Below are positions 63,834 to 63,950 of a stretch of 64,000 nucleotides of DNA, in pieces (positions within the stretch are counted from its first letter, which is position 1; each line of letters starts with the position of its first letter). The notes beneath the pieces were generated by a model, which worked only from the letters and a program-made list of their open reading frames with translations, was not told the DNA's origin and ran no database searches. The position numbers were made by a program, and so were the translations under genes. The stretch spans positions 704,001-768,000 of the forward strand of contig CM000430.1 in assembly GCA_000165345.1 (NCBI GenBank). Direction: 5' to 3'.

Positions 63834-63950
63834 CTTTCTGTGATGACAAAAATTAACGTTTCTCAACATTCGCAGTGTTGTACCGAAATGGAGATCTTAA
63901 ATATGCGCATTTAAGACTCTATGATGGACTTCCTTAGATGTCTGAGAGAG
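63834..63950 (+). ncRNA. SNORD14: U14 box C/D snoRNA (18S rRNA processing and 2'-O-methylation guide)
   Basis: Box C GUGAUGA is at 63840-63846 and box D CUGA at 63942-63945. A terminal stem pairs CUUUC (63834-63838) with GAGAG (63946-63950). The 13 nt directly 5' of box D (CUUCCUUAGAUGU, 63929-63941) are the exact complement of the conserved 18S segment ACAUCUAAGGAAG (domain B). CAACAUUCGCAG (63864-63875) complements the 18S 5' region CUGCGAAUG (domain A). A C'-like UGAUGG lies at 63922-63927. Confidence 0.8.

What the first reader, a model, noticed from the sequence alone, without database searches (positions are those of the whole stretch)
63834..63950. U14 box C/D snoRNA with both 18S-complementary domains
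- **Structure.** A 117-nt element has box C (GUGAUGA), box D (CUGA) and a 5-bp terminal stem.
- **Domain B.** A 13-nt guide abuts box D and is perfectly complementary to the conserved 18S segment ACAUCUAAGGAAG.
- **Domain A.** An upstream AACAUUCGCAG complements the 18S 5' region CUGCGAAUGG.
- **Predicted target.** By the box D +5 rule, the methylated residue is the C in ACAUC*UAAGG, equivalent to yeast 18S Cm414.
- **Context.** Small RNAs are usually missing from annotations of such genomes. The plus-strand purine-rich stretch just upstream (63757-63810) resembles the leaders of protein genes here, so a dedicated or host-gene transcript is plausible.
Basis: partly seen in the sequence, partly recalled or inferred. 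Interest (0 to 1): 0.6.

Follow-up and report, generated by a model that had tools for sequence, protein, structure and literature searches.

The report
U14 snoRNA gene of Cryptosporidium parvum
This is the Cryptosporidium parvum copy of U14, a small nucleolar RNA found across eukaryotes that helps make and methylate 18S ribosomal RNA; the identification is sound but ordinary, and the gene is probably already annotated as an unnamed C/D snoRNA.

Summary
At 63830-63954 (+) there is a complete box C/D snoRNA:
- box C (GUGAUGA) and box D (CUGA);
- a 9-14 bp terminal stem;
- C'/D'-like boxes joined by an 11-bp hairpin;
- a 13-nt guide next to box D;
- the U14 "domain A" core, CAUUCGCAGU.

Rfam's SNORD14 model matches full length at 48.6 bits. 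This is the window's best hit (E=3.6e-7) but falls below the curated cutoff of 64, which explains why cutoff-based pipelines do not name it.

The window is C. parvum chromosome 2, in the gap next to cgd2_3580. The element sits at the same syntenic site and on the same strand in eight other Cryptosporidium genomes. Both 18S-pairing domains are nearly invariant there, both helices covary (0/500 shuffles), and the flanks diverge.

Published C. parvum 18S primers and probes contain both target segments. The +5 rule predicts 2'-O-methylation of the C in ACAUC*UAAGG.

A 2025 review lists "cgd2_3583, C/D snoRNA", which by gene numbering falls in this gap. So the gene is probably already annotated without a family name. 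No searchable paper calls it U14.

The "purine-rich leader" idea is not supported. That stretch is a lineage-specific insert inside a second conserved non-coding block upstream.

Verdict: correct, routine family assignment, low interest.

The parts
63825..63838 (+). 5' strand of the terminal stem. The core is 63830-63838; 63825-63829 extend it in the precursor.
   Evidence: Pairs with 63946-63959. Across nine species, 10 of 14 pairs show changes on both sides. Examples are C. muris AAUGUAAUUAUC/GAUAAUUACAUU and C. ubiquitum AAUACUCUC/GAGAGUAUU.
63840..63846 (+). Box C, GUGAUGA
   Evidence: The UGAUGA core is invariant in all nine species. It aligns to box C of the Rfam SNORD14 model.
63857..63876 (+). 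Invariant block CGUUUCUCAACAUUCGCAGU containing U14 domain A. The core CAUUCGCAGU (63867-63876) pairs with 18S (A)CUGCGAAUG.
   Evidence: All 20 nt are identical in the nine species. The block matches the Rfam consensus GUUcCuaaaCAUUCGCAGU. The target CTGCGAATGG begins a published C. parvum 18S primer designed on AF164102.
63883..63886 (+). D'-like box CCGA (CUGA in C. muris and C. serpentis)
   Evidence: It lies 6 nt after the domain A duplex, so domain A cannot place a target base at the +5 position. This fits a non-methylating, chaperone-type role (inference).
63891..63919 (+). Internal hairpin: 3+8 bp with one bulged A and the loop AUGCGC. It joins D' to C'.
   Evidence: Predicted in both the MFE and centroid folds. 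96.9% of cells are paired across nine species, and 3 pairs change on both sides (A-U to G-C or U-A).
63922..63927 (+). C'-like box UGAUGG
   Evidence: Invariant in all nine species.
63929..63941 (+). Domain B: the 13-nt methylation guide CUUCCUUAGAUGU. G63937 is the fifth base upstream of box D and pairs with the predicted target C.
   Evidence: Identical in 6 of 9 species, with one substitution in C. ryanae and a 1-nt deletion in C. muris and C. serpentis. The pan-Cryptosporidium 18S probe JVAP18S is the reverse complement of CATCTAAGGAAGGCAGCAGGCGCG. It therefore documents 12 of the 13 target bases, including the predicted methylated C.
63942..63945 (+). Box D, CUGA
   Evidence: Invariant in nine species.
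63946..63959 (+). 3' strand of the terminal stem (core 63946-63954)

Best explanation
The element is the single-copy gene for the Cryptosporidium parvum orthologue of U14 (SNORD14; yeast snR128).

**Inferred by homology with yeast and vertebrate U14 (no step tested here):**
- The transcript is trimmed to about 115-125 nt.
- Its box C/D kink-turn, held together by the terminal stem, assembles the core C/D proteins (Snu13, Nop56, Nop58, fibrillarin).
- The particle binds nascent pre-18S rRNA at two places.
- Domain B (63929-63941) forms a 13-bp duplex with ACAUCUAAGGAAG. It places the second C of ACAUC (paired to G63937, five bases from box D) in fibrillarin's active site for 2'-O-methylation. 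This site is equivalent to yeast Cm414 and human Cm462.
- Domain A (63867-63876) pairs with (A)CUGCGAAUG near the 18S 5' end. It lies too far from the D'-like box to methylate, so it acts as an RNA chaperone needed for the early pre-rRNA cleavages that produce 18S rRNA.

**Shown here:**
- The sequence anatomy.
- The significant full-length match to the U14 covariance model.
- Syntenic conservation with covariation across the genus.
- The presence of both target segments in published C. parvum 18S oligonucleotides.

**Genomic setting:** the gene lies on the strand opposite both neighbouring protein genes. It is therefore not intronic. It is transcribed either from its own promoter or as part of a same-strand non-coding transcript.
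For: 1. **Family model.** Rfam SNORD14 matches full length (1-111) at 48.6 bits. E is 1.7e-9 for the local search and 3.6e-7 for the whole window. Orthologues score 53.4 (C. ryanae), 49.7 (C. canis) and 45.9 (C. muris).
2. **Anatomy.** All C/D parts and both U14 domains are in the canonical order.
3. **Species and locus.** The 600-aa neighbour is identical to C. parvum Iowa II EAK88668.1, and its C. hominis orthologue carries the tag CHM_2g3580.
4. **Synteny.** The order giant gene, gap, ~600-aa gene, Dus is conserved in C. meleagridis, ubiquitum, felis, ryanae, muris, serpentis, canis and an unnamed species. Each gap holds the element on the same strand.
5. **Conservation and covariation.** Across the nine species, a 20-nt block containing domain A is invariant. 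For the two helices, 88% of cells are paired, 13 pairs change on both sides, and no shuffle out of 500 reaches the observed covariation score. Slid controls give 35-54% paired. In blastn against distant species, conservation stops at the element's edges.
6. **Targets in the species' own 18S.** The C. parvum 18S primer CTGCGAATGGCTCATTATAACA (AF164102) and the pan-Cryptosporidium probe CGCGCCTGCTGCCTTCCTTAGATG contain them.
7. **Guide-target match.** The guide has A where the Rfam consensus has G (CCUUAGAUGU versus CCUUGGAUGU). This matches the U-for-C difference in Cryptosporidium 18S (ACAUCUAAGG versus ACAUCCAAGG).
8. **Family function.** U14's dual role (cleavage plus 18S Cm) is documented for the family (PMC4361047; the N. 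crassa U14 homologue with 'Cleavage' and '18S-Cm411', PMC2780460).
9. **Probable expression.** A C/D snoRNA numbered cgd2_3583 is listed for C. parvum. Such ncRNA entries were added from an sRNA-seq study and numbered by position between neighbouring genes.
Against: - The Rfam score (46-53 bits in all four species tested) is below the curated gathering cutoff of 64, so by Rfam's own rule it is not an automatic member.
- Domain A keeps only 10 of the 13 consensus bases (CAUUCGCAGU then GUU instead of UUC). Documented pairing to C. parvum 18S is 9 bp, plus a likely tenth.
- I could not retrieve the full C. parvum 18S sequence, so target evidence rests on published oligonucleotides. The first base of the 13-nt domain B target is not covered by the probe.
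- No expression, methylation or processing data were examined directly.
- The link to cgd2_3583 is inferred from gene numbering, not from coordinates.
Confidence: 0.93

Rival explanations
1. It is an ordinary single-function C/D methylation guide for this 18S cytidine. It shares ancestry or convergent guide sequence with U14, but its 'domain A' no longer acts in pre-rRNA processing.
For: Domain A complementarity is shorter than the canonical 13 bp, and its 3' part differs from the consensus. The Rfam score is below the gathering cutoff.
Against: The 20-nt block around domain A is the most conserved part of the RNA. It is invariant in nine species whose Dus proteins are only 41-87% identical to the C. 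parvum protein. That is hard to explain without function. C. ryanae restores 12 contiguous consensus bases (CAUUCGCAGUUU). No other U14 candidate appeared in the window.
Confidence: 0.05
2. U14 is not an independent gene. It is cut out of a longer same-strand non-coding precursor that also carries the conserved upstream block (63511-63793) and possibly the conserved downstream block. This would resemble plant snoRNA clusters or the yeast snR190-U14 dicistron. This rival concerns biogenesis, not identity.
For: - A conserved block ends only about 31 nt before the U14 stem, and its order relative to U14 is kept across species.
- Its predicted helices contain G.U pairs that work only on the + strand.
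- The terminal stem is long, up to 14 bp, as in excised snoRNAs.
- In C. muris the whole gap is only 973 nt.
Against: - No transcript data were examined.
- The upstream block has no convincing C/D or H/ACA boxes and no Rfam match.
- Its predicted structure shows no significant covariation among the five alignable species.
- An E2F-like TTTCCCGCC site lies between U14 and the downstream block, which suggests separate promoters.
Confidence: 0.3
3. It is a chance resemblance or a decaying pseudogene with no function.
For: None beyond the sub-threshold Rfam score.
Against: - No shuffle out of 100 reproduces the pattern.
- The element is conserved at the syntenic site with compensatory changes across the genus.
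- The boxes and guides are invariant.
Confidence: 0.01

Closest known systems
U14 / SNORD14 (Rfam RF00016; yeast snR128, human SNORD14A-E)
   Same: - Box C, box D and a terminal stem.
- Domain A core CAUUCGCAGU preceded by the GUUUCU..AA context.
- A domain B guide next to box D aimed at the universally conserved 18S site (yeast Cm414, human Cm462; these numbers are from my own knowledge).
- A full-length covariance-model match.
- A hairpin between the two domains, in the position where the model has a variable insert and yeast has its Y domain.
   Different: - It scores 48.6 bits against a gathering cutoff of 64.
- The last three bases of canonical domain A are changed (GUU for UUC).
- The guide carries A instead of G, matching the U in Cryptosporidium 18S.
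- It has well-formed and conserved C'/D'-like boxes.
- It is intergenic and antisense to both neighbours, not intronic as in vertebrates (hsc70) or Neurospora.
Neurospora crassa CD37 (U14 homologue; PMC2780460)
   Same: It is annotated with the same two functions: 'Cleavage', and 18S-Cm411 guided from box D.
   Different: The Neurospora gene is intronic, lies in a snoRNA cluster within a non-coding host gene, and is co-transcribed with another snoRNA. For Cryptosporidium, co-transcription is only a possibility.
C/D snoRNAs already annotated in C. parvum (U3, SNORD36, SNORD96, and three unnamed ones including cgd2_3583)
   Same: Same class and same genome. cgd2_3583 is very probably this same locus, because its number places it between cgd2_3580 (the 600-aa neighbour) and cgd2_3590.
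   Different: The published lists give no family name or target for cgd2_3583. Li et al. 2022 named only families that pass Rfam's gathering cutoff (U3, SNORD36, SNORD96) and do not mention U14.
U3 snoRNA
   Same: It is another C/D snoRNA that base-pairs with pre-18S rRNA as a chaperone for early cleavages.
   Different: U3 has box A/A', B and C' elements and a 5' hinge region. It does not guide methylation and is encoded elsewhere in C. parvum.

Membership tests
Box C/D snoRNA class | Box C (RUGAUGA) near the 5' end and box D (CUGA) near the 3' end, brought together by a terminal stem | tested here: met
   GUGAUGA is at 63840-46 and CUGA at 63942-45. A 9-14 bp stem flanks them. The boxes are invariant and the stem covaries in nine species.
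Box C/D snoRNA class | An antisense guide of at least 10 nt ending next to box D (or D'), with the target base paired to the fifth guide position | tested here: met
   The 13-nt guide at 63929-41 abuts box D, and G63937 is position 5. The target sequence is present in a pan-Cryptosporidium 18S probe.
U14 / SNORD14 (RF00016) | Domain B: complementarity to the 18S site ACAUC(C/U)AAGGAAGG next to box D | tested here: met
   CUUCCUUAGAUGU is the perfect complement of ACAUCUAAGGAAG. Twelve of the 13 target bases are documented in Cryptosporidium 18S.
U14 / SNORD14 (RF00016) | Domain A: a conserved sequence (consensus CAUUCGCAGUUUC) complementary to the 18S 5' region GAAACUGCGAAUG, not used for methylation | tested here: met
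   CAUUCGCAGU matches 10 of the 13 consensus bases and is invariant in nine species. CTGCGAATG is documented in C. parvum 18S. The match is shorter than canonical, with 9-10 bp of pairing. It lies 6 nt from the D'-like box, so it is not a methylation guide.
U14 / SNORD14 (RF00016) | Score at or above Rfam's curated gathering cutoff (64 bits) | tested here: not met
   The four tested species score 48.6 (C. parvum), 53.4, 49.7 and 45.9 bits. The E-values are nevertheless 2e-6 or better, and the alignments are full length.
U14 / SNORD14 (RF00016) | Evolutionary conservation as an RNA gene (purifying selection on boxes and guides, covariation in helices) | tested here: met
   Nine syntenic orthologues were compared. 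88.3% of cells are paired, 13 pairs change on both sides, and no shuffle out of 500 reaches the observed score.
U14 / SNORD14 (RF00016) | A stable nucleolar RNA of about 90-130 nt bound by fibrillarin, Nop56, Nop58 and Snu13 | not testable with these tools
   The only evidence is indirect. cgd2_3583, listed as a 'C/D snoRNA' from an sRNA-seq-based catalogue, probably corresponds to this locus.
U14 / SNORD14 (RF00016) | Required for early pre-rRNA cleavages and 18S production; directs 2'-O-methylation of the target C | not testable with these tools
   These roles are known for the family. No Cryptosporidium data exist.
Polycistronic or dicistronic snoRNA unit (plant clusters; yeast snR190-U14) | A second snoRNA on the same strand within about 100-300 nt, co-transcribed | tested here: inconclusive
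   A conserved same-strand block ends 31 nt upstream. However, it has no clear C/D or H/ACA boxes, no Rfam match and no significant covariation. Co-transcription is not testable here.

The most novel reading that the evidence does not exclude
The roughly 3-kb gap between cgd2_3580 and the giant neighbouring gene may be a small island of non-coding RNA genes. U14 would be flanked on the same strand by two further genus-wide conserved RNAs of unknown family: one upstream of about 280 nt (63511-63793), and one downstream just outside the window. The three would be made from one precursor, so that the essential U14 is produced together with Cryptosporidium-specific structured RNAs that also act in ribosome biogenesis.
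Probability: 0.2. Interest if true: 0.4.

Novelty: new member of a known kind. Interest (0 to 1): 0.2.

Why it matters
**Practical value**
- It names an essential ribosome-biogenesis RNA in an important diarrhoeal parasite. The published C. parvum snoRNA list is very short: 6 C/D (including U3) and 4 H/ACA in Li et al. 2022.
- It assigns a family and a specific predicted 18S methylation site to what is probably the anonymous entry cgd2_3583.
- It shows that Rfam's gathering cutoff for SNORD14 is too strict for this genus. The nine-species alignment could seed a better model for apicomplexan genomes.

**Conceptual value**
This is expected. U14 occurs across eukaryotes, so finding it in C. parvum answers no open question.

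Tried and rejected
- **Rfam at gathering cutoffs** found nothing in the whole window. The match appears only in E-value mode.
- **Retrieving Cryptosporidium's own 18S.** The pan-Cryptosporidium primer site GGACTTTTTGGTTTTGTAATTGG gave no match in metagenome contigs or in the bacterial and archaeal genome collection. The C. parvum primer CTGCGAATGGCTCATTATAACA gave 25 environmental 18S contigs, but none carries a Cryptosporidium-specific primer site. They show only that the two target sites lie about 295-330 nt apart in eukaryotic 18S. I therefore fell back on published C. parvum oligonucleotides.
- **Supplementary tables of Li et al. 2022**, which would give coordinates of their snoRNAs, are not held.
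- **Literature searches** for U14 with Apicomplexa or with Cryptosporidium found nothing relevant. The Plasmodium snoRNA paper mentions U14 only in a reference.
- **Purine-rich 'leader'.** I considered and rejected it as a conserved leader or host-gene feature. It is absent from six of eight orthologues.
- **Upstream block as coding exon.** Rejected: only short ORFs overlap it, and indels between species are not multiples of three.
- **Upstream block as H/ACA snoRNA.** Rejected: a candidate ACA follows the last helix only in C. parvum and C. meleagridis.
- **Weak VqmR hit** at 40440-40570 (E=0.002, 38 versus 76 bits). It matches a bacterial family, lies inside an ORF, and is treated as chance.

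Full report
**Where the window comes from.**
- The window is about 30% G+C and packed with long intron-free ORFs that encode eukaryotic proteins, including SF3b2, UCH and Dus.
- The SF3b2 and Dus ORFs hit Cryptosporidium best.
- The 600-aa ORF at 60173-61975 (-) is identical to C. parvum Iowa II EAK88668.1. Its C. hominis orthologue carries the tag CHM_2g3580, which corresponds to legacy gene cgd2_3580 on chromosome 2.
- The same protein is encoded on roughly 992-kb chromosomes of three assemblies. One is GCA_035232765.1, the C. parvum IOWA II BGF telomere-to-telomere assembly.

**The observation.**
The sequence shows the following parts:
- 5' stem strand at 63825/63830-63838;
- box C GUGAUGA at 63840-46;
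- the block CGUUUCUCAACAUUCGCAGU at 63857-76;
- a D'-like box CCGA at 63883-86;
- a hairpin at 63891-63919;
- a C'-like box UGAUGG at 63922-27;
- the guide CUUCCUUAGAUGU at 63929-41;
- box D CUGA at 63942-45;
- 3' stem strand at 63946-63954/59.

The minimum-energy and centroid folds both recover the terminal stem and the internal hairpin (z = -2.8). The composite pattern occurs once in the window and never in 100 shuffles.

- The stem is 9-14 bp, not 5.
- Only CAUUCGCAG(U) of 'AACAUUCGCAG' can pair with 18S.

**Family assignment.**
- At Rfam's gathering cutoffs nothing in the window is reported.
- In E-value mode, SNORD14 (RF00016) aligns over its whole length (1-111) at 48.6 bits. E is 1.7e-9 locally and 3.6e-7 for the whole window, where it is the top hit.
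- The alignment places box C, the domain A context (consensus GUUcCuaaaCAUUCGCAGUUuC), the variable insert, domain B (CCUUCCUUGGAUGU) and box D in register.
- Orthologues in C. ryanae, C. canis and C. muris score 53.4, 49.7 and 45.9 bits.
- The whole genus therefore falls under the cutoff of 64. This explains why pipelines that keep only hits above the cutoff report just U3, SNORD36 and SNORD96 for C. parvum.

**Comparative evidence.**
- Using Dus orthologues as anchors, I fetched the syntenic region from C. meleagridis, ubiquitum, felis, ryanae, muris, serpentis, canis and an unnamed species from run SRR31860986.
- Gene order is the same in all of them: giant ~6000-aa gene, gap, ~600-aa gene, Dus, PrsW.
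- Each gap contains the element on the strand opposite the protein genes.
- In the nine-way alignment A3, box C core, the 20-nt domain A block, C', almost all of domain B and box D are invariant.
- The terminal stem differs in sequence but still pairs. For example, C. muris has AAUGUAAUUAUC/GAUAAUUACAUU and C. ubiquitum has AAUACUCUC/GAGAGUAUU.
- Counting my stated structure on A3 gave 88.3% paired cells, 13 pairs with changes on both sides, and a covariation score of 0.447 against 0.204 for shuffles. No shuffle out of 500 reached it. Slid controls gave 35-54% paired.
- In blastn against the more distant species, similarity in the gap begins and ends at the element's borders.
- Together these results are the signature of a functional RNA gene.

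**Targets in the organism's own 18S.**
I could not fetch a Cryptosporidium 18S sequence. Published oligonucleotides designed on it contain both sites:
- The C. parvum 18S (AF164102) forward primer is CTGCGAATGGCTCATTATAACA.
- The pan-Cryptosporidium SSU probe JVAP18S, CGCGCCTGCTGCCTTCCTTAGATG, is the reverse complement of CATCTAAGGAAGGCAGCAGGCGCG.

These documented segments support the following pairing:
- Domain B has 12 of its 13 target bases documented, including the predicted methylated C.
- Domain A has 9 bp documented. A tenth is likely, because 18S sequences generally read AACUGCG (seen in the environmental contigs).
- The guide's A (Rfam consensus G) matches the U that Cryptosporidium 18S has in place of C, so guide and target agree.

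**Mechanism.**
- By the box D +5 rule, G63937 selects the second C of ACAUC*UAAGG for 2'-O-methylation.
- Domain A ends 6 nt before the D'-like box, so it cannot direct methylation.
- In yeast and vertebrates this domain is the part of U14 needed for early pre-rRNA cleavages and 18S production. U14 is listed with U3 and snR30/U17 as a chaperone snoRNA. The Neurospora homologue is annotated with both 'Cleavage' and '18S-Cm411'.
- All of this is inference by homology. Nothing functional was tested.

**Genomic setting.**
- L001 extends past the window end. The giant gene (6547 aa, window minus strand) stops at window-equivalent ~65012, and cgd2_3580 starts at 61975.
- U14 therefore lies in a gap of about 3 kb. 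It is divergent from cgd2_3580 (1.86 kb away) and convergent with the giant gene (1.07 kb away).
- It is not intronic.
- In C. muris the whole gap is 973 nt.

**Prior knowledge.**
- Li et al. 2022 (PMC9465071) catalogued 134 C. parvum small RNAs from sRNA-seq. They named only families passing Rfam's cutoff, added three unnamed C/D and four H/ACA snoRNAs, and never mention U14.
- A 2025 review lists 'cpbgf_2003583/cgd2_3583 C/D snoRNA'.
- The assembly paper states that added ncRNAs are numbered by position between neighbouring genes.
- Since the 600-aa neighbour is cgd2_3580, cgd2_3583 almost certainly lies in this gap. This is the only C/D snoRNA-like element I found there.
- So the gene is probably already annotated, and by implication expressed. 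Its identity as U14, its two domains and its target appear unreported in the searchable literature.

**The 'leader'.**
- The purine-rich stretch (63757-63783) is present only in C. parvum and C. meleagridis.
- It sits in the variable top of a hairpin whose base (ACUCGGA 63690-96 with UCUGAGU 63787-93) recurs in other species. C. felis has CACGGA/UCUGUG, C. ryanae has a short ACUCGA/UCGAGU hairpin, and C. canis has UCUCGGAAC/GUUCCGAGA.
- That hairpin belongs to a conserved non-coding block at 63511-63793.
- For this block, sequence conservation is clear. However, covariation among the five alignable species is not significant, and no Rfam family matches.

**Verdict.**
This is a routine but correct family assignment for a snoRNA found across eukaryotes. 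It is useful for annotation and of low conceptual novelty.

Noticed in passing
window 63511-63793 (+): A second conserved non-coding block lies immediately upstream of U14 on the same strand.
- It is about 280 nt long and ends 31 nt before the U14 stem.
- It is conserved in C. meleagridis, C. ubiquitum and the SRR31860986 species, and in parts in C. canis, felis, ryanae and muris.
- Predicted helices are CUCUUUGU/GCAAAGAG enclosing two hairpins, a GUAUAUAC...GUAUAUAC hairpin, and ACUCGGA..UACUU / AAGUA..UCUGAGU.
- G.U pairs favour the + strand.
- It has no Rfam match and no clear C/D or H/ACA boxes, and covariation among five species is not significant.
- It may be one of the unnamed Cryptosporidium ncRNAs.
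   Followed up: partly
L001 7553-7782, minus strand of the locus (window-equivalent 64194-64423, just past the window end): A third conserved non-coding block lies about 250-480 nt downstream of U14.
- It contains the near-invariant stretches GCACAATTTAATCCATTAAATGTGC and AATGACATTTAATGTTCATGCTTGTGCAA.
- These are recognisable even in C. muris (GCACCTTTTAATCCGTT ... GACGTTCATGCAGGTGC).
- A possible long-range helix is GCACAA/UUGUGC in C. parvum and GCACCU/AGGUGC in C. muris.
- There is no Rfam match.
   Followed up: partly
L001 7850-7858 (window-equivalent 64118-64126): An E2F-like site, TTTCCCGCC, lies between U14 and the downstream conserved block. It is conserved in C. meleagridis and C. 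ubiquitum, and similar CCCGCC/GGCGG motifs sit about 320 nt upstream of U14 in C. muris and C. serpentis. These are candidate promoter elements for the non-coding genes.
   Followed up: no
window 62690-62702: A G+C-only palindrome, GGCGCGCGCGCC(C), stands out in a very A+T-rich intergenic stretch. It is about 0.7 kb upstream of the cgd2_3580 start codon and lies in a region with some similarity to C. canis and C. ubiquitum. It is possibly an E2F-type promoter element.
   Followed up: no
window 61976-64000 and beyond, to window-equivalent ~65011: The intergenic gap here is about 3 kb in C. parvum, meleagridis, ubiquitum and the SRR31860986 species. That is unusually long for this compact genome. 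The gap shrinks to 1.7 kb in C. ryanae and about 1 kb in C. muris and C. serpentis, while keeping U14 and the flanking conserved blocks.
   Followed up: partly
window 40440-40570 (+): A weak match to the bacterial sRNA family VqmR (38.1 bits against a cutoff of 76, E=0.002) lies inside the ORF at 39878-40825. It is almost certainly a chance match.
   Followed up: no
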